In this document: positions 6,167 through 52,644 of the stretch, one piece after another
How the letters are laid out: the number at the start of each line of letters is the position of its first letter
Numbering within the stretch: the stretch's first letter is position 1
IMG/VR virus record: IMGVR_UViG_3300023094_000010
DNA: 64,000 nucleotides
Direction: 5' to 3' (one strand)
Source of the DNA: an uncultured virus (IMG/VR IMGVR_UViG_3300023094_000010)
Taxonomy: Duplodnaviria > Heunggongvirae > Uroviricota > Caudoviricetes
Made by a program: the position numbers and the translations under genes
Notes under the pieces: generated by a model
What the model was told of the DNA's origin: nothing
Databases searched by the model: none
Seen by the model: only the letters and a program-made list of their open reading frames with translations

Positions 6167-6176
6167 AGATTTTTCG

Positions 6177-6204
6177 TTGTCTTTTCAAAGCCCCGTGGTA
6201 AAGT
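6177..6204 (+). promoter_or_regulatory. Sigma70-type promoter for the RNA island
   Basis: TTGTCT-N16-TAAAGT with TGn extension, 17 nt upstream of tmRNA 5' end. Confidence 0.55.
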
Positions 6205-6221
6205 GATCTCGTTCTTTGATT

Positions 6222-6592
6222 GGGGCTGTTAAGGAGTCGATTCCAAGACAAGTTCCCTGCTGCATGCAGAGCACGGTGCGTCGCTCTTTAAAACGCGCAC
6301 CAAACACAAACGGCAACACCAATCGCCTGCTCGCCTCCGCTCCCTCCGTGTCCGACGCTGACGCCATCTTGGCCAAGTTCGGGTACGTGGAAAAGTCCGA
6401 GCTTCAAGCCGCCTAAAACGGCCTGACGATCCCTCACATGGGTCGTATCCAAATGTGAACTACAATTGGCCGCGCAAGCTCGCGGATGGTGGAGGAGCGT
6501 CCATTTGGACATTCCCTATGTTAGGATTAAGCATGTCGACGCAGGGCGCAGACTTTTGGAAGACCCGGGTTCAAATCCCGGCAGCTCCACCA
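6222..6592 (+). ncRNA. ssrA: tmRNA
   Basis: 5' GGGGCTG, 3' T-arm CCGGGTTCAAATCCCGG then CAGCTCCACCA with G3:U pair; internal tag frame about 6312-6416 ending ELQAA*. Confidence 0.93.
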
Positions 6593-6673
6593 CTTTGGGT
6601 CTCGCACCGTTGCAACGGGGCGATGTACCCGCCGTCAGCCGGCCGGGATGCCCCACGATACGGGTCCAAATAT

Positions 6674-6751
6674 GATGGCGGTAGTTTAATATCAAAACCT
6701 TCAGGGGCTATACTCTGTTGATTGGGGGTGAGAATCCCTCCCGCTGTCCCA
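6674..6751 (+). ncRNA. tRNA-like element with non-canonical anticodon arm
   Basis: Acceptor ATGGCGG/CCGCTGT plus G-1:C73, D-arm GTTT/AAAC, T-arm GGGGG-TGAGAAT-CCCTC, CCA; no standard 7-nt anticodon loop. Confidence 0.6.
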
Positions 6752-6753
6752 TT

Positions 6754-7502
6754 CCCGGCCTTCACAGGCTCGGGTTCTCACTGCCCCTCTCACGCTCTGA
6801 AAGCGTGCTCTGGGCCGACCAACACCCCAGACGCGGATCTCGCAAAGTCCCCGCGTTTGCCATCCTCGGCGTTCCTGTAAGCCTTGCTTGTTGGGCTTCC
6901 GTCTCGTATTCACACGAGCACTACAGGATGTGAGAGTAGTTCCGGCGCTACGCAATCACCGGCAAGTTTGGGGAGGCTACGATGGTGGTCTTGTGCTCAT
7001 GAGGCACTGATCAAACTCGTACGTCGGGCCAGCGGGAACGCTGCTGCCTCCCCGCCAATTAGAGGGAGACGTCCGATCGTGACGGACCGTCGACTCATGG
7101 AGTCGACGTCGTATAGATGGACCTGTGCTAAGGTTGTGCGCTGCTTCGGGTAGCCGGCCGAAAACGAAAGTCTTGCGGATATTACGCCCTCGTCACTTCA
7201 GGCCCTGTCCGGACAGGACGCCTTCCGACAGTCGGACGTGATGCAAGCGACGATACAGCGGCACGAATTTCCGGTGGATGGGAGTGATTTTGCTCCCGTC
7301 CTCCGTCTGATCATGACAGACGAAATAATGCTCCGATAAAGCATTCGTTGTGTGGGCCGAACGAAGCAGGACACCGAAGTGGCTGGGTCACGAGGGAAAA
7401 CTCGCCAGCCAGACGGAAACGCGCTCAGAGCGAAGTAGCCAAAAGTAAAGTAGGCCTCGGCCGAAACGCGAAGTAGCCAAAAGCCGATGTTCATCGCCGT
7501 CT
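6754..7502 (+). ncRNA. Large (~750 nt) highly structured ncRNA, family unidentified
   Basis: No credible ORF; more than 15 hairpins, nested long-range stems, GGAA and cUUCGg tetraloops; lies between tmRNA and tRNAs. Confidence 0.7.
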
Positions 7503-7507
7503 TTTTC

Positions 7508-7584
7508 ATCTTCCTTAGCTCAGTCGGTAGAGCGGCGGTCTCCAAAACCGCAGGTCGAAGGTTCGAGGCCTTCAGGAGATGCCA
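7508..7584 (+). tRNA. trnW: tRNA-Trp(CCA)
   Basis: Anticodon arm GCGGT-CTCCAAA-ACCGC, T-arm GAAGG-TTCGAGG-CCTTC, CCA end; acceptor stem has one bulge or mismatch. Confidence 0.88.
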
Positions 7585-7646
7585 TTTTACGACGGGATAA
7601 GGCGGCCGCGTTAGTATTTCCGATGCAAACTCTCGTCCCCATTTTC

Positions 7647-7722
7647 GCGTCGGTAACTCAGTTGATAGAGTGCCTGACTTCCACTCAGGCGGTCGCGGGT
7701 TTGAGTCCCGCCCGACGCTCCA
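7647..7722 (+). tRNA. trnG: tRNA-Gly(TCC)
   Basis: GCGTCGG/CCGACGC acceptor, CCTGA-CTTCCAC-TCAGG anticodon arm, U73 and CCA. Confidence 0.92.
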
Positions 7723-7858
7723 ATTTACCAGCAGTATACTAGCCTCGCCATGAGGCCGCCCACATAACAGCCCCGCGAGTCGGGGCCGTCGCTGGTCACT
7801 GTGGGGGGATAGTTCAAAGGTCGGTCGGACGACTTGTAATGGCGAGATCCGAACAGTT

Positions 7859-7934
7859 GCCCTCGTGGTCTAAACGGTTATGACACCTCCCTTTCACGGA
7901 GGAGATTTGGGTTCGATTCCCGGCGGGGGTACCA
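7859..7934 (+). tRNA. trnE: tRNA-Glu(TTC)
   Basis: CCTCC-CTTTCAC-GGAGG anticodon arm, GGTTCGATTCC T-loop, CCA. Confidence 0.92.
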
Positions 7935-7973: not shown

Positions 7974-8717
7974 ATGGCACTCGAAACATTCGTCGTCTTC
8001 GGCGATCCCCACGGCGACGAGATTGACCCGGCGATGAAAGCTTCGCTCCTGAATTTTCTTCGGGAGTTCAAGCCTGACATCCTCGTAAACGCGGGGGACA
8101 ATTTCAATTTCAGCCACATCCGCTGCAAGGCCTCGCCGGCTGAGCGTAACGCGTCGTCCGCGGAAGATTGGCGTGCCGGCAGTGAGTTTTTCCTCGAAGC
8201 GATGTCCTTTGGCAGGAGTCGCTTTTTCCTGCGTGGCAATCATGACGAGCGTCTCTGGGACGTCGCCAAGAATTCGCTCGAGTCCGATCGCCGCGATGCG
8301 GCCGAGGAGGGCATTCGAAAGATCGAGCAGATGGTGCGCCGTCGTCGCGCCGTGATGCTGCCGTATCATTCGAACAAGGGTGTTCTCGATGTCGACGGCC
8401 TCCGAGTGATCCACGGGTACTCGGCCGGCGTCGGCGCGGCGCGTAAATTCGCGCAGGTGTACGGATCGTGCGCGTTTGCCCACACCCACTCCATGGACGT
8501 GGCTCCGGTCGAGCAGTGGCCCCACGCGGCCGTCGCGTACGGCACCGGGTGCCTCATGCGGATCGATCAAGAGTACAACGCTCGTAACCTCGGAAAGCTC
8601 CGGCACGAGAACGGTTGGCTCTATGGATTTGTCAAAGACGGAAAAGCGACATACTTTCAAGCCAAACAAAATGCTGACAAAAAAGTCTACGCTCCGACCG
8701 ACTTTAAAGGGTTCTGA
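7974..8717 (+). CDS. Calcineurin-like metallophosphoesterase
   Basis: GDPHG, AGD, GNHDER, HG and AHTH metal-binding motifs. Confidence 0.85.
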   Translation: MALETFVVFGDPHGDEIDPAMKASLLNFLREFKPDILVNAGDNFNFSHIRCKASPAERNASSAEDWRAGSEFFLEAMSFGRSRFFLRGNHDERLWDVAKNSLESDRRDAAEEGIRKIEQMVRRRRAVMLPYHSNKGVLDVDGLRVIHGYSAGVGAARKFAQVYGSCAFAHTHSMDVAPVEQWPHAAVAYGTGCLMRIDQEYNARNLGKLRHENGWLYGFVKDGKATYFQAKQNADKKVYAPTDFKGF

Positions 8718-37895: not shown

Positions 37896-38870
37896 TTAAT
37901 TAGAGAGAGTGATTTTGAGGACATGCAGAATAGTTTGGATGCGTTCTTTGACGAGAAAAGCAGAGAGGCCACGGGACTTTCCGATCTCGGCGAACGAGAG
38001 ACTACGGGAAAAACGATCGTGCAACAACCCCAATTCTTCGGTGCCGAGCTTCATTTTTGCTGCCTCCAATTTCTGGAGGAGCTCTTCCTGTTCGCCGCGT
38101 TCCGCGTCCTCTTCGGCCGCGATCTCAGCCACCTGTTGCAATGGATTGGAGACGCACGTGATCGGGGTCTGATCTTCACCGGTGGGGTTGTCCATGCTGC
38201 GTGAGACCTCACGCGCCTCGACCCGCTCTTGAAATGCGTCGAAACTATCCTGCCGGCCGCCGGGGAGGGAGAGAATGCGGACCACCTCGGACAGGTTGAC
38301 GCTTAGAATCTCCGAGATCTCTTCGGCCCGCATGCCCTCCCGTATCATCTTCGCGAATTGCGAATACTTTTTCCGATCACTGCTCGGCACCTTGATGGCG
38401 TGAACTTCGTAACGCGCCTCCGACAGGGCCTTCTTGATCCACCAGCCGGCGTAAGTGGTGAACCGGGCTCCGTTCTTCGGGTCGAACTTCCGGATGGCTC
38501 GCATGAGGCCGAGGTTGGCGGCGCTGATGGCATCGTCTTCGGCCAGCCCGCATTTCATGCGAGCCTCGACGGTGCGGTGGCCCATATCCTTGCGGGCTTG
38601 GCGAAGCGCGAAGAACAGGTACGAGCGGACGATGCGTTCGACGATCTTGGCGTCTTCGGGACTGTCCTGCAGCGAGAGAAAAAGGCTCTGCTCCTCCGCG
38701 GATGTGAGCCTCACTGGCTCGATTTCTTGGTGGGAATAATAGCGGCGATCATGGAACGCCCCATACAACCGAGCATCGGCATTACTACTAACAAGCGGGT
38801 GACTTCGTCCGAATTGTGCCTGAGAAACGGAGATATCCCGGGCGGTCCGGTTTTTTCGTTCTTTGATCAT
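37896..38870 (-). CDS. Sigma70-family sigma factor (A)
   Basis: Region 2 DAISAANLGLMRAIRKFDPKNGARFTTYAGWWIK; region 4 SFAEIGKSRGLS. Confidence 0.88.
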   Translation of the reverse strand: MIKERKNRTARDISVSQAQFGRSHPLVSSNADARLYGAFHDRRYYSHQEIEPVRLTSAEEQSLFLSLQDSPEDAKIVERIVRSYLFFALRQARKDMGHRTVEARMKCGLAEDDAISAANLGLMRAIRKFDPKNGARFTTYAGWWIKKALSEARYEVHAIKVPSSDRKKYSQFAKMIREGMRAEEISEILSVNLSEVVRILSLPGGRQDSFDAFQERVEAREVSRSMDNPTGEDQTPITCVSNPLQQVAEIAAEEDAERGEQEELLQKLEAAKMKLGTEELGLLHDRFSRSLSFAEIGKSRGLSAFLVKERIQTILHVLKITLSN

Positions 38871-51643: not shown

Positions 51644-51842
51644 AGCCACCCTCGCAGCCGCCAACCTCGTTACAACTTCCGGTCCTCTCAATTATGTCCA
51701 CGCTCTCGAAAATCCCTCCTTCAAAATCTCCTACGACGCCGAAACGCTCGCAGCTGCGGCGCTCCGCGTCGCCGAGCAACGGGGATACGAGCGTGGTCGC
51801 GCCGACGCCCGGCGAGATCTCATCGACCGGCTTTTCTCTTAG
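51636..51842 (+). CDS. Hypothetical protein
   Basis: 68 aa; overlaps the N-terminal extension of the sigma ORF. Confidence 0.4.
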   Translation: MNKATLAAANLVTTSGPLNYVHALENPSFKISYDAETLAAAALRVAEQRGYERGRADARRDLIDRLFS

Positions 51843-52644
51843 TCGCATCGCCCGTTTGGCCGGCGAGTTCAAGCCGCTGTCGGGGTCCGAGGAGCGAAAG
51901 CTCTTGGCCTCGAGAAAAACGAAGGACGAGAAACGCCTCGCCCTCTGGCACCACAATCTGCGGTACGCCGGCCTCCTCACGACCGAGGCTTTCAATCGCC
52001 GCCTGCCTCACCAAATCTGCACCCGCGACGACCTCGAGTCCGCCGCGTTCGTCGCGCTGTGGGACGCCGCCGGCAATTTCGAACCTCAACGGGGCACGAA
52101 GTTCATCTCGTACGCCAAATGGGGCATCAACAAGGCCCTCTCCGACGTCCTCACGCACTCCGCGAGCGGCCTGACGGTGCCTCGTGCGGCTATCCGCATC
52201 TTGGGAGCCCTCAAAACGCAGGAAGACACCGGCGTCGAAAGCAAACAGTTTTCTCAGCGTCGACTGCAGAAGGCCGCCCTCTATCGAACTGCGGTGACCT
52301 CTATCGATTATACACATCTCAAAGGGGATTCCGCCGACGTCATCGAGGGCCGTCACGCTCTTATCCCCGGCGACATCGACACTGTCAAGGAGGTCGAGAC
52401 GCCCGAGCTGTCCGCCAAGCTCGACGAGATGCTGGAGAAGCTGGCCGGATTAGATCCCCGCATGCCCCAGATGCTGCGTGATTATTACGACTTCGACGGC
52501 CGCCACCACACCCTCGACACCATCGGGAAAAAACACGGCATCACCCGCGAACGCGTCCGCCAAATCCTTTTCCAAGGGCTCCGCCGTCTCCGCATCCTCG
52601 CGCAGGCGCGGGGCATCAAATTCCAAGACCTCCTCGCCTCGTGA
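51694..52644 (+). CDS. Sigma70-family sigma factor (B)
   Basis: HNLR, DDLESAAFVALWDAAGNFEPQRGTKFISYAKWGI; region 4 TLDTIGKKHGITRERVRQI; true start uncertain. Confidence 0.88.
   Translation: MSTLSKIPPSKSPTTPKRSQLRRSASPSNGDTSVVAPTPGEISSTGFSLSRIARLAGEFKPLSGSEERKLLASRKTKDEKRLALWHHNLRYAGLLTTEAFNRRLPHQICTRDDLESAAFVALWDAAGNFEPQRGTKFISYAKWGINKALSDVLTHSASGLTVPRAAIRILGALKTQEDTGVESKQFSQRRLQKAALYRTAVTSIDYTHLKGDSADVIEGRHALIPGDIDTVKEVETPELSAKLDEMLEKLAGLDPRMPQMLRDYYDFDGRHHTLDTIGKKHGITRERVRQILFQGLRRLRILAQARGIKFQDLLAS

What the first reader, a model, noticed from the sequence alone, without database searches (positions are those of the whole stretch)
6754..7502. Unnamed ~750-nt giant structured RNA with self-complementary loops in the tmRNA/tRNA island
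Seen: no credible ORF and near-continuous pairing. Nested stems include CTCTCAC(6787)/GTGAGAG(6930), TCCTGTA/TACAGGA, GGGGAGGC(6970)/GCCTCCCC(7046), TGGCTGG(7380)/CCAGCCA(7405) and AGACGG(7411)/CCGTCT(7497), with GGAA and cUUCGg tetraloops. Many hairpins have palindromic tips: TCATGA in loops at about 6997 and 7311, TCGTGA at about 7077, CGTCGACTC-ATG-GAGTCGACG (7088), CCTGTCCGGACAGG (7204), TCCGAC-A-GTCGGA (7224). Established: GOLLD and ROOL are large phage-associated RNAs often found beside tRNAs, and they multimerise via loop contacts. Inference: this is a large RNA of that functional class, either a divergent member or a new family, that may self-assemble through palindromic kissing loops. 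I do not recognise family-specific sequence.
Basis: partly seen in the sequence, partly recalled or inferred. Interest (0 to 1): 0.85.

Follow-up and report, generated by a model that had tools for sequence, protein, structure and literature searches.

The report
New large folded RNA in phage
A soil phage carries, wedged between transfer-RNA genes, a gene for a roughly 750-base RNA that makes no protein, keeps its folded shape in related phages, and matches no catalogued RNA family; what it does is unknown.

Summary
Window 6752-7507 (+) is an ORF-poor gap in a phage RNA operon, bounded by a tRNA-like element (6675-6751) and tRNA-Trp (7508).

It matches no Rfam 15 family, even at E<=10. One full homolog was found (L091, about 70% identical). 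A strain variant (run X3) and pieces of a third lineage (run X6 contig) also turned up.

- **Compensating changes:** pairs predicted from the window alone keep pairing in L091 through 26 double changes, against 9 broken. Shuffles average 6.4 (maximum 14) and coding controls give 8-10.
- **Folding energy:** z is -2.8 and -4.1 for the two RNAs, against +0.5 and +1.2 for coding controls.
- **Not coding:** substitutions show no codon periodicity.
- **Strand:** G-U pairs and four of four helix SNPs point to a + strand RNA.

Weak points:
- Only two full sequences exist.
- The long-range core helices never vary.
- Several alignment-wide statistics are no better than coding controls.
- There is no expression evidence.

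The proposed palindromic kissing loops are not conserved.

Verdict: a real, new family of large structured phage RNA in the GOLLD/ROOL niche, but not a member of either. It is probably cut out of the transcript by tRNA-processing enzymes. Its function is unknown.

The parts
6177..6204 (+). Promoter-like element: TTGTCT, 16-nt spacer, TGG-TAAAGT (an extended -10 shape). It ends 17 nt before the first RNA gene.
   Evidence: The 52-nt stretch 6169-6220 is 77% identical to L091 1797-1848, which sits at the same distance before L091's tRNA-like gene. It matches only 8 of 12 consensus positions, so the scan did not list it. The promoter role is inferred from conservation and position.
6222..6592 (+). 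Phage-encoded tmRNA, the first gene of the RNA operon in the window. It is absent from L091.
   Evidence: Rfam tmRNA at 104.6 bits, full length. ARAGORN did not call it.
6675..6751 (+). Aberrant tRNA-like element ending in CCA, directly before the large RNA.
   Evidence: Rfam tRNA at 25.4 bits, below the threshold of 29. The positional homolog in L091 (1851-1922) is called tRNA-Lys(ctt) by ARAGORN but not by Rfam. The acceptor stem and T arm covary: 6 of 16 pairs changed on both sides.
6752..7507 (+). The large structured RNA as a whole, about 756 nt. The L091 homolog is about 775 nt (1926-2700).
   Evidence: Colinear alignment with L091 at 70.5% identity over aligned columns, with fully identical blocks of 49 and 29 nt. 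No Rfam match. Folding z -2.76.
6754..6774 (+). P1, the 5' hairpin (7 pairs, one C-C mismatch in the window).
   Evidence: Perfect in L091 (CCCGAGC/GCUCGGG). Predicted in both single-sequence folds.
6788..6935 (+). Domain 1, closed by UCUCACG/UGUGAGA. Inside it are hairpin P4 (6828-6859, with an invariant 14-nt loop AUCUCGCAAAGUCC) and a three-way arm: H4 6873-6879/6922-6928, H5 6880-6884/6893-6897 and H5b 6903-6907/6914-6918.
   Evidence: P4 has 3 pairs changed on both sides; H4 has 1 and H5 has 1. Possible loop-loop pairing CCAACA 6819-6824 with UGUUGG 6889-6894 has 1 compensating change. The closing helix never varies except G-U to A-U.
6936..6951 (+). H8 hairpin with the conserved loop UCCGGC. 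Its CCGG could pair with CCGG at 6959-6962.
   Evidence: G-C to C-G swap at the closing pair. The loop is kept in L091 (UCCGGU). The pseudoknot is my inference.
6970..7053 (+). H1 arm: an 8-pair helix GGGGAGGC/GCCUCCCC closing a variable interior with two hairpins.
   Evidence: 4 of 8 pairs changed on both sides and 1 on one side, all kept (UGGAGGUU/GACCUCCG in L091). The interior hairpins differ in sequence but sit at the same places.
7054..7087 (+). Invariant linker GCCAAUUAGAGGGAGA, then H3, a T-arm-like hairpin (5-pair stem, 7-nt loop) at 7071-7087.
   Evidence: 3 of 5 pairs of H3 changed on both sides. In L091 this segment shares 14 identical bases (variable loop, T stem and loop start) with the neighbouring tRNA-His (E 0.002 in that small search).
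7088..7108 (+).
   Evidence: Replaced in L091 by a different hairpin of about 58 nt at the same place.
7122..7198 (+). Conserved block 1 of the core. 7122-7170 is identical in L091 (49 nt).
   Evidence: CUGCUUCG 7141-7148 pairs with CGAAGCAG 7362-7369, CGGCC 7155-7159 with GGCCG 7355-7359, and GUG 7136-7138 with CAC 7372-7374. These are predicted independently in both folds but never vary. The X6 contig covers 7086-7192 with 8 differences.
7199..7265 (+). Window-only insertion holding the palindromic hairpins at 7204 and 7224.
   Evidence: A 71-column gap in L091. The X6 contig has 73 other letters in place of 7193-7342.
7272..7349 (+). Three adjacent hairpins inside the core junction: 7272-7305, 7306-7320 and 7319-7349. 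The last has the conserved loop CGAUAAA.
   Evidence: Helices 13 and 14 have 3 and 1 pairs changed on both sides. AAUGC/GCAUU becomes GAGAC/GUCUC in L091, 3 double changes. X3 SNPs at 7295 and 7327 keep pairing.
7347..7374 (+). Conserved block 2, identical in L091 together with 7346 (29 nt). It forms the 3' strands of the core helices.
7380..7411 (+). H13 hairpin, UGGCUGG/CCAGCCA, with a variable tip.
   Evidence: UGGUUGA/UCAACUA in L091: 2 double changes and 1 single change, all kept. The differences listed for the X6 contig also fit a compensated stem by my reading.
7411..7507 (+). 3' domain closed by AGACGG/CCGUCU, followed by UUUUU. Inside are a small hairpin with a CUCG loop (7453-7462) and an exact 15-nt duplication (7431-7445 and 7469-7483).
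   Evidence: The closing stem and U run are identical in L091. The CUCG hairpin stem differs in L091 (GCGAC/GUUGC). The terminator scan did not list the site because the loop is too long for its rule.
7508..7934 (+). Downstream genes of the same operon: tRNA-Trp 7508-7584, tRNA-Gly 7647-7722, a second small conserved structured RNA at about 7745-7850, and tRNA-Glu 7859-7934.
   Evidence: tRNAs. The small RNA has 5 of 30 predicted pairs changed on both sides against L091 and no Rfam match.

Best explanation
Window 6752-7507 (+ strand) is the gene for a roughly 750-nt structured non-coding RNA of a family not yet catalogued, carried by a large uncultured phage.

**Shown:**
- It is non-coding.
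- It is conserved colinearly in a related phage, with many compensating base-pair changes.
- It folds better than shuffled sequence in both phages.
- In both phages a tRNA-like element lies immediately before it and a tRNA immediately after it.

**Inferred:**
- It is transcribed from the conserved promoter-like element at 6177-6204 as part of one precursor: tmRNA, tRNA-like element, large RNA, tRNAs, small RNA.
- It is cut out by the host's tRNA-processing enzymes. 3' maturation of the tRNA-like element would set its 5' end, and RNase P cleavage at tRNA-Trp would set its 3' end just after the U run.
- It folds into three parts: a 5' domain (6754-7053); a T-arm-like hairpin plus a variable hairpin; and a 3' core in which two invariant blocks pair across about 220 nt to form a multi-helix junction. 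A stem-closed tail follows.

**Function (my commitment, low certainty):** it acts as a free, stable RNA scaffold during infection, in the same functional class as GOLLD and ROOL. It would work on the translation or tRNA machinery that the rest of the operon serves, rather than as a cis regulator.
For: **Context.**
- The phage is shown by a tail fibre, a chaperone, a DNA polymerase, helicases and two sigma factors.
- The RNA lies between a tRNA-like element and tRNA-Trp. In L091 it lies between a tRNA-like element and tRNA-His.
- The upstream promoter-like stretch is conserved at the same distance in both.

**Homolog.**
- L091 1926-2700 is colinear and 70.5% identical, with identical blocks of 49 and 29 nt.
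- The flanking tail genes are not alignable.

**Compensating changes.**
- Pairs predicted from the window alone and mapped onto L091 keep 26 double changes and break 9. In the reverse direction the figures are 14 and 9.
- 60 column shuffles average 6.4, with maxima of 14 and 10.
- Three coding control windows give 7-10 kept against 6-14 broken.
- In a curated set of 101 pairs, 19 changed on both sides and 201 of 202 cells pair. Slid controls give 0-3.
- Two further helices read directly have 3 and 2 double changes.

**Other support.**
- A strain variant in run X3 has 9 SNPs here. All 4 that fall in modelled helices keep pairing, always through G-U or to G-C.
- One contig of run X6 carries pieces 7086-7192 and 7343-7507, plus the downstream small RNA, in the same order. 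This is a third lineage.
- Folding z is -2.76 and -4.12, against +0.47 and +1.21 for coding windows.
- It is not coding.
- It matches no Rfam family.
Against: **Too few sequences.** Only two full-length sequences exist, so no proper covariation statistic such as R-scape is possible.

**Selection bias.** I chose the curated helices knowing both sequences, so overstates support.

**Statistics that do not beat controls.**
- One-sided changes in window-predicted pairs are kept in only 10 of 51 cases. That is no better than shuffles (about 28%) or coding controls.
- The structure conservation index is 0.48, against 0.49-0.50 for coding controls.
- A blind count of stems shared by both sequences with compensating changes is no higher than in coding controls.

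**Unity of the molecule is unproven.** The helices that would tie the parts into one molecule never vary between the two phages. These are 6788/6935, 7141/7369 and 7411/7502. One molecule of 750 nt is therefore inferred from contiguity, not shown.

**Inference only.**
- The promoter, the processing route and the RNA ends are all inferred.
- The promoter-like site matches only 8 of 12 consensus positions.

**Dispensable.** A third relative of the neighbouring gene (L092) lacks the RNA, so the phage can do without it.
Confidence: 0.72

Rival explanations
1. The region is not one RNA but a string of independent pieces between tRNA genes. These would be spacer hairpins, decayed tRNA remnants and two or three separate small RNAs, each processed apart.
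For: - The region is framed by tRNA-like genes.
- H3 is a T-arm look-alike that in L091 shares 14 bases with the neighbouring tRNA-His.
- All helices with compensating changes span 85 nt or less.
- The three longest-range helices never vary, so nothing proves that the domains belong to one molecule.
- Variable hairpins are inserted or lost freely.
Against: - The order and spacing of all conserved blocks are kept in L091, and as far as covered in the X6 contig.
- The two invariant blocks, 220 nt apart, are complementary over 8+5+3 pairs. Both single-sequence folds pair them.
- No tRNA, promoter-like or terminator-like site lies inside 6752-7497.
Confidence: 0.12
2. It is a very divergent member of GOLLD or ROOL that the Rfam models fail to recognise.
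For: - It has the same niche: phage, beside tRNA genes.
- It has a similar size.
- Its most conserved part is in the 3' half and it holds a freely varying internal insert. The paper I read passages of says the same of GOLLD and ROOL (PMC12286853).
Against: No match to either model, or to any other large RNA family, even at E<=10 with relaxed filters, in either homolog.
Confidence: 0.06
3. It is a cis-acting or DNA-level element rather than a free RNA. Examples are a long structured spacer that controls processing or read-through of the tRNA operon, or a single-stranded DNA structure used in replication or packaging.
For: - It ends in a stem plus a U run directly before tRNA-Trp, which could modulate read-through.
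- It is hairpin-rich.
Against: - The curated helices hold 13 G-U cells, and all 4 helix SNPs of the X3 variant pass through G-U. On the other strand or in a DNA cruciform these would be A-C mismatches.
- The - strand folds less well (z -1.48).
- 750 nt with 49-nt invariant blocks is far more than a terminator or spacer needs.
Confidence: 0.06
4. It encodes one or more small proteins.
For: A TTG-started ORF begins at the equivalent place in both phages (6884-7153 and L091 2114-2308). The two align at 40% identity.
Against: - The identity is confined to the stretches where the DNA itself is invariant.
- The middle is out of frame: indels of 5, 5 and 2 nt.
- The stops differ.
- Substitutions fall evenly on the three codon positions (27/31/26, against 44/29/121 in the next gene).
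- None of the 7 ORFs tested reaches its Pfam gathering cutoff; the one hit at E<=0.1 scores 14.8 bits against a cutoff of 40.
- The longest - strand ORFs show no similarity at all.
Confidence: 0.02

Closest known systems
[quoted passage not shown]
   Same: - Large (many members over 800 nt) and of unknown function.
- Encoded in phages and prophages, often near tRNA islands.
- Has a better conserved 3' region and a variable internal region. These points are from passages of PMC12286853.
- Here: about 750-775 nt, in a phage tRNA/tmRNA operon, with the invariant blocks in the 3' half and a 71-nt variable insert.
   Different: - No match to the Rfam model at E<=10 in either homolog.
- No sequence similarity found.
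- The 14-mer cage of GOLLD cannot be tested here.
ROOL RNA (rumen-originating, ornate, large)
   Same: - Encoded in phages and prophages near tRNA islands.
- Multiple pseudoknots.
- An unconserved internal linker (PMC12286853 passages).
- Here: the same niche, candidate loop-loop pairings and a variable insert.
   Different: - No match to the Rfam model.
- Longer than ROOL (about 580 nt, as I recall).
- The kissing loops that hold ROOL cages together are conserved. The palindromic tips here are not.
Stable small RNAs of the phage T4 tRNA gene cluster (species 1 and 2).
   Same: Non-tRNA stable RNAs are co-transcribed with phage tRNAs and released by the tRNA-processing machinery. Their function is still unknown.
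   Different: The T4 RNAs are about 120-140 nt, and no sequence relation is known. The small RNA at 7745-7850 is closer to them in size than the 750-nt RNA is.
Other orphan large RNAs in phage tRNA islands noted earlier in this scan (e1-5740938, e1-1993759, e1-5938054)
   Same: The same kind of place (tRNA/tmRNA operon of an uncultured phage), no Rfam family, and support from compensating changes in one or a few relatives.
   Different: No shared sequence words with any earlier window. These are unchecked AI notes, and I tested none of them.

Membership tests
GOLLD | Match to the Rfam covariance model | tested here: not met
   No GOLLD row at gathering score or at E<=10 with relaxed filters, in window 6550-7560 or L091 1780-2800.
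GOLLD | Phage or prophage gene near a tRNA island | tested here: met
   Phage proteins. tRNA or tRNA-like genes on both sides in both homologs.
GOLLD | Universally conserved 3' region and less conserved 5' region | tested here: inconclusive
   The 49-nt and 29-nt invariant blocks lie in the 3' half. With two sequences this is only a hint, and the 5' domain is also fairly well kept.
GOLLD | Homo-oligomeric RNA-only cage (14-mer) | not testable with these tools
   Needs in vitro transcription and native gel, mass photometry or cryo-EM.
ROOL | Match to the Rfam covariance model | tested here: not met
   No ROOL row.
ROOL | Conserved kissing loops that join protomers | tested here: inconclusive
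One conserved CCGG loop (6942-6945) could pair within or between molecules.
tmRNA, tRNA, RNase P RNA, group I and II introns, OLE, HEARO and all other Rfam 15 families | Match to the family's covariance model inside 6752-7507 | tested here: not met
   Within 6752-7507 the only row at E<=10 is uc_338 (12.6 bits against a threshold of 120, E 2.8), which is chance.
Intrinsic terminator (for the 3' end 7411-7507) | Short GC-rich hairpin directly followed by a U run | tested here: inconclusive
   A 6-pair stem AGACGG/CCGUCU plus UUUUU is conserved. It encloses 80 nt, so the scan rule did not list it. tRNA genes follow within 5 nt.

The most novel reading that the evidence does not exclude
This would be a third, independent family of phage 'ornate' RNAs that, like GOLLD and ROOL, assembles into an RNA-only multimer. 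Its distinctive feature would be framing by tRNA-like handles, so that the host's tRNA-processing enzymes release it. It also carries a T-arm module that lets it engage tRNA-binding factors, or capture the phage's own tRNAs, during infection.
Probability: 0.15. Interest if true: 0.85.

Novelty: new variant of a known kind. Interest (0 to 1): 0.6.

Why it matters
Large, elaborately folded RNAs beside phage tRNA genes (GOLLD, ROOL) were recently shown to build RNA-only cages, yet their function is unknown and only two such families are catalogued.

A further unrelated family in the same niche would show that phages have invented this kind of RNA repeatedly. It would also give a new, well-delimited 750-nt candidate for structural work.

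Its framing by a tRNA-like element and a tRNA, and its borrowed T arm, suggest a concrete and testable route of biogenesis, and a link to tRNA biology that the known families have not yielded.

Tried and rejected
**Whole-genome search.** Not possible, because no genome is held for this window.

**Homolog searches that found nothing.**
- blastn against phage records with the window RNA and with the L091 RNA.
- blastn against plasmids.
- The tail chaperone in IMG/VR: 0 relatives.
- The phosphoesterase in IMG/VR: 36 loci, all at 43% identity or less. None of the 36 resembles the RNA and only 1 of 36 has any tRNA.
- Pattern scans of IMG/VR with CGAAGTAGCCAAAAG (51 hits), GCCGAACGAAGCAGGAC (1 hit, inside a coding region), GGGTAGNNNNNNGAAAACGAAAG (1 hit) and CGACTTGTAATGGCGAG (1 hit). 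All are chance matches by BLAST of the flanks.
- The tRNA-Trp pattern: 0 hits.
- The same degenerate pattern in one genome per 185,579 species: 32 hits, all chance.
- The tmRNA 3' end: a prophage attachment site, plus another phage (L090) with a tmRNA and 12 tRNAs but no similar RNA.
- A profile of the two RNAs run with nhmmer over the 201 other loci (832 kb including L091) and the rest of the window: nothing.
- Earlier notes of this scan by place and by sequence: nothing.

**Sequencing runs.**
- No RNA holder is listed. Run X6 is labelled RNA-Seq, but the tool judges it probably DNA.
- Run X4 gave no cover of the RNA itself. Parts of the RNA are also uncovered in X2, X3 and X6.
- The X6 contig could not be fetched, so only its listed differences were used.

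**Not attempted.** A covariance model of the whole RNA, because about 750 columns exceeds the tool's 400-column limit.

**Neighbouring genes.** Pfam and PHROGs gave no RNA-related function. The only hit is a calcineurin-like phosphoesterase at 7974-8717.

**Literature.**
- Searches for a published description of such an RNA found only GOLLD/ROOL papers and a survey of IMG/VR structured RNAs.
- I read passages of that survey (PMC10690425). It required three or more IMG/VR regions, which this RNA lacks.
- I did not read its supplements, so I cannot rule out that a fragment is listed there.

**Ideas rejected.**
- A diversity-generating retroelement template next to the tail fibre: the nhmmer profile found no similar sequence elsewhere in the window.
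- An RNase P-like RNA, suggested by the AAAGUCC in the P4 loop: no model match.
Full report
**What is there.** The window is part of a large uncultured phage.
- It has a tail fibre and chaperone just upstream.
- Further on it has a DNA polymerase, helicases, nucleases and two sigma-factor genes.
- No whole genome is held for it.

Between the tail module and a phosphoesterase gene lies an RNA-only stretch on the + strand:
- tmRNA at 6222-6592 (Rfam 104.6 bits);
- a weak tRNA-like element at 6675-6748 followed by CCA (25.4 bits, below threshold);
- tRNA-Trp at 7508, tRNA-Gly at 7647 and tRNA-Glu at 7859.

**It is not a known family.**
- At Rfam's own thresholds the window holds only the tmRNA and three tRNAs.
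- A relaxed scan of 6550-7560 at E<=10 gave 7 rows. The only one inside the gap is a chance row (uc_338, 12.6 bits against a threshold of 120).
- The same scan of the homolog gave 4 rows, none meaningful within the RNA.
- There is no match to GOLLD, ROOL, OLE, RNase P or any intron model.

**Relatives.** Most searches failed; the full list is under Tried and rejected.

The one metagenome scan, seeded with the downstream phosphoesterase, gave 77 loci. Three of them are at 67% protein identity or more.
- **L091** (77%) holds a colinear homolog of the RNA at about 1926-2700.
  - It is 70.5% identical over aligned columns.
  - Blocks of 49 and 29 nt are fully identical.
  - The tail genes upstream are not alignable.
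  - Here too a tRNA-like element lies immediately before the RNA (ARAGORN calls it tRNA-Lys; Rfam does not) and a tRNA (His) immediately after it.
  - L091 has no tmRNA.
- **L092** (71%) has only one tRNA in this slot and no such RNA. The RNA is therefore an accessory cassette.
- **L093** is cut 110 nt before the gene.

Public runs add two things.
- Contigs of run X3 are a strain variant with 9 SNPs in the RNA.
- One 15,336-nt contig of run X6 carries 7086-7192 (8 differences), 7343-7507 (15 differences, 9 gaps) and the downstream small RNA, in the same order and on one strand. This is a third, more distant lineage, but its sequence could not be fetched.
- Run X2 holds identical pieces.

**Is the fold real?** Evidence for it:
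- The + strand folds better than dinucleotide shuffles in both phages: z -2.76 and -4.12, with 0 of 20 shuffles as good. Two coding windows of equal length do not (+0.47 and +1.21). The - strand gives -1.48.
- The least biased test folds one sequence alone and asks what the other did at those pairs.
  - From the window to L091, 26 pairs changed on both sides and stayed paired, and 9 broke.
  - From L091 to the window, the figures are 14 and 9.
  - Sixty column shuffles average 6.4 kept, with maxima of 14 and 10.
  - Three coding windows give 7-10 kept and 6-14 broken.
- On a curated set of 101 pairs in 16 helices, 19 pairs changed on both sides and 201 of 202 cells pair. Slid controls give 0-3 and 38-43% paired.
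- The best helices in that set:

| Helix | Pairs changed on both sides |
|---|---|
| 6970-6977 / 7046-7053 | 4 of 8 |
| 6828-6836 / 6851-6859 | 3 of 9 |
| 7071-7075 / 7083-7087 | 3 of 5 |

- Two helices that MAFFT misaligns by one column were read directly:
  - AAUGC/GCAUU against GAGAC/GUCUC (3 double changes);
  - UGGCUGG/CCAGCCA against UGGUUGA/UCAACUA (2 double changes).
- Of the 9 SNPs in X3, 4 fall in modelled helices and all 4 keep the pair. The other 5 are in loops or linkers.

Evidence against, told as fully:
- I picked the curated helices knowing both sequences.
- One-sided changes in window-predicted pairs are kept in only 10 of 51 cases, no better than controls.
- The structure conservation index is 0.48, against 0.49-0.50 for coding windows.
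- A blind tally of shared stems with compensating changes is no higher than in coding controls: 4 stems with three or more changes, against 1, 2 and 0.
- Neighbouring coding windows reach similar raw energies.

I read this as a real fold whose helices are well supported locally. The support rests on an alignment of only two sequences with large variable inserts, and that drags down the alignment-wide measures.

**RNA, + strand, non-coding.**
- The curated helices hold 13 G-U cells, and all four helix SNPs pass through G-U or repair one. On the opposite strand or in DNA these would be A-C mismatches.
- Substitutions fall evenly on the three phases (27/31/26), while the next gene shows 44/29/121.
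- Indels are mostly not multiples of three.
- The one ORF that starts at the same place in both phages aligns only where the DNA is invariant.
- The longest - strand ORFs do not align at all.
- None of the 7 tested ORFs reaches its Pfam gathering cutoff.

**Architecture** (window coordinates). Helices with compensating changes are marked *.
- P1, the 5' hairpin: 6754-6774.
- Domain 1, closed by 6788-6794/6929-6935. It holds P4* (with an invariant 14-nt loop) and a three-way arm H4*/H5*/H5b.
- Hairpin H8*, with a conserved CCGG loop.
- Arm H1*, with a variable interior.
- The invariant linker GCCAAUUAGAGGGAGA.
- H3*, a T-arm look-alike. In L091 it shares 14 bases with the neighbouring tRNA-His.
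- A variable hairpin.
- The core, where the two invariant blocks pair with each other: 7141-7148/7362-7369, 7155-7159/7355-7359 and 7136-7138/7372-7374. They enclose a junction with three hairpins*.
- H13*.
- A tail closed by 7411-7416/7497-7502, followed by UUUUU.

The long-range helices are predicted independently in both single-sequence folds. They never vary, so they are plausible but not proven.

The palindromic tips are features of this one phage.
- The hairpins at 7204 and 7224 lie in a 71-nt insertion that L091 lacks.
- The 7088 hairpin is replaced in L091 by a different, longer one.
- The TCATGA tips are not kept.
- Only the CCGG loop at 6942-6945 is conserved, and it could equally pair with CCGG at 6959-6962 within the molecule.

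Conservation therefore gives no support for assembly through these loops. Assembly as such remains untested.

**How it probably works.**
- A 52-nt stretch ending 17 nt before the first RNA gene is conserved between the two phages. In one the first gene is a tmRNA and in the other the tRNA-like element.
- That stretch has the shape of a promoter with an extended -10. It is weak by consensus (8 of 12 positions) and the scan did not list it.
- I infer one precursor transcript.
- The large RNA is framed by a tRNA-like element whose acceptor stem and T arm covary (6 of 16 pairs) and by a true tRNA 5 nt after its U run.
- The ordinary tRNA-processing enzymes would therefore release it with defined ends. 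This is inference from position and from textbook knowledge of RNase P and tRNA 3' maturation. No ends were observed.
- For its role I can only commit to the class: a stable, free, structured RNA made together with the phage's tRNAs and tmRNA, likely acting on translation or tRNA biology, as is suspected for GOLLD and ROOL.

**Comparison with the known.**
- GOLLD and ROOL are large RNAs of phages and prophages, often near tRNA islands. They have variable internal linkers, and GOLLD has a conserved 3' region. Both form RNA-only cages. These points come from passages of PMC12286853.
- This RNA shares the niche, the size class and the conserved-core-plus-variable-insert pattern.
- It fails the only membership test I could run, the covariance models.
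- It is therefore a separate family of the same kind.
- Earlier notes of this scan list several other orphan RNAs in phage tRNA islands. They share no sequence with this one, and I did not test them.

**Verdict.** This is a real, new, rare family of large structured phage RNA: three lineages seen, two of them full length. The structure is supported locally. Unity of the molecule, biogenesis and function are inferred.

Noticed in passing
window 7745-7850 (L091 about 2797-2900): A second, small (about 105-135 nt) conserved structured RNA lies between tRNA-Gly and tRNA-Glu. 5 of 30 predicted pairs changed on both sides against L091, and no Rfam match at E<=10 is meaningful. It is also present on the X6 contig (7736-7849, 24 differences).
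   Followed up: partly
window 6758-6763 with 6972-6977: The 5' strand and loop of P1 (GCCUUC) can pair with the 5' strand of H1 (GGAGGC). This alternative also shows 3 double changes in L091 (AGCCUC/GAGGUU). It could be an alternative fold or chance; coding controls gave 0-2 stems of that strength per window.
   Followed up: partly
L091 2283-2296 and L091 tRNA-His 2742-2755: The T-arm-like hairpin of the L091 RNA shares 14 identical bases with the neighbouring tRNA-His (variable loop, T stem and start of the T loop). This suggests exchange between the RNA and tRNA genes, or a tRNA-derived module.
   Followed up: partly
window 6222-6592: Rfam scores this tmRNA at 104.6 bits, but ARAGORN does not call it. 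The frame 6216-6416 is open up to a TAA, so the tag peptide may be unusually long. The tmRNA of the unrelated phage locus L090 has a 27-residue tag.
   Followed up: no
window 7431-7445 and 7469-7483: An exact 15-nt duplication (CGAAGUAGCCAAAAG) lies inside the 3' domain. It is only loosely kept in L091, so it is probably a recent duplication in this phage.
   Followed up: partly
window 6761-6766, 6777-6782, 6788-6793, 6838-6844: Four YCUCRC-like motifs (UUCACA, UCUCAC twice, UCUCGCA) could each pair with the single invariant UGUGAGA at 6929-6935. The true partner of that strand is therefore ambiguous.
   Followed up: no
L090 (IMG/VR contig, 5025 nt held): Another phage with a tmRNA and 12 tRNA genes, and ORF-poor gaps of about 305 and 430 nt between RNA genes. 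It has no similarity to the RNA studied here.
   Followed up: no
window 37896-38870 (-) and 51694-52644 (+): Two phage-encoded sigma-factor genes (PHROG 351, E 2.5e-25 and 4.6e-24). The RNA operon's promoter may therefore be read by a phage sigma rather than the host's.
   Followed up: no
L092 2700-3000: A relative whose phosphoesterase is 71% identical has only a tRNA-Arg where the window has the whole RNA operon. The operon therefore behaves as a gain-or-loss cassette at a fixed slot.
   Followed up: partly
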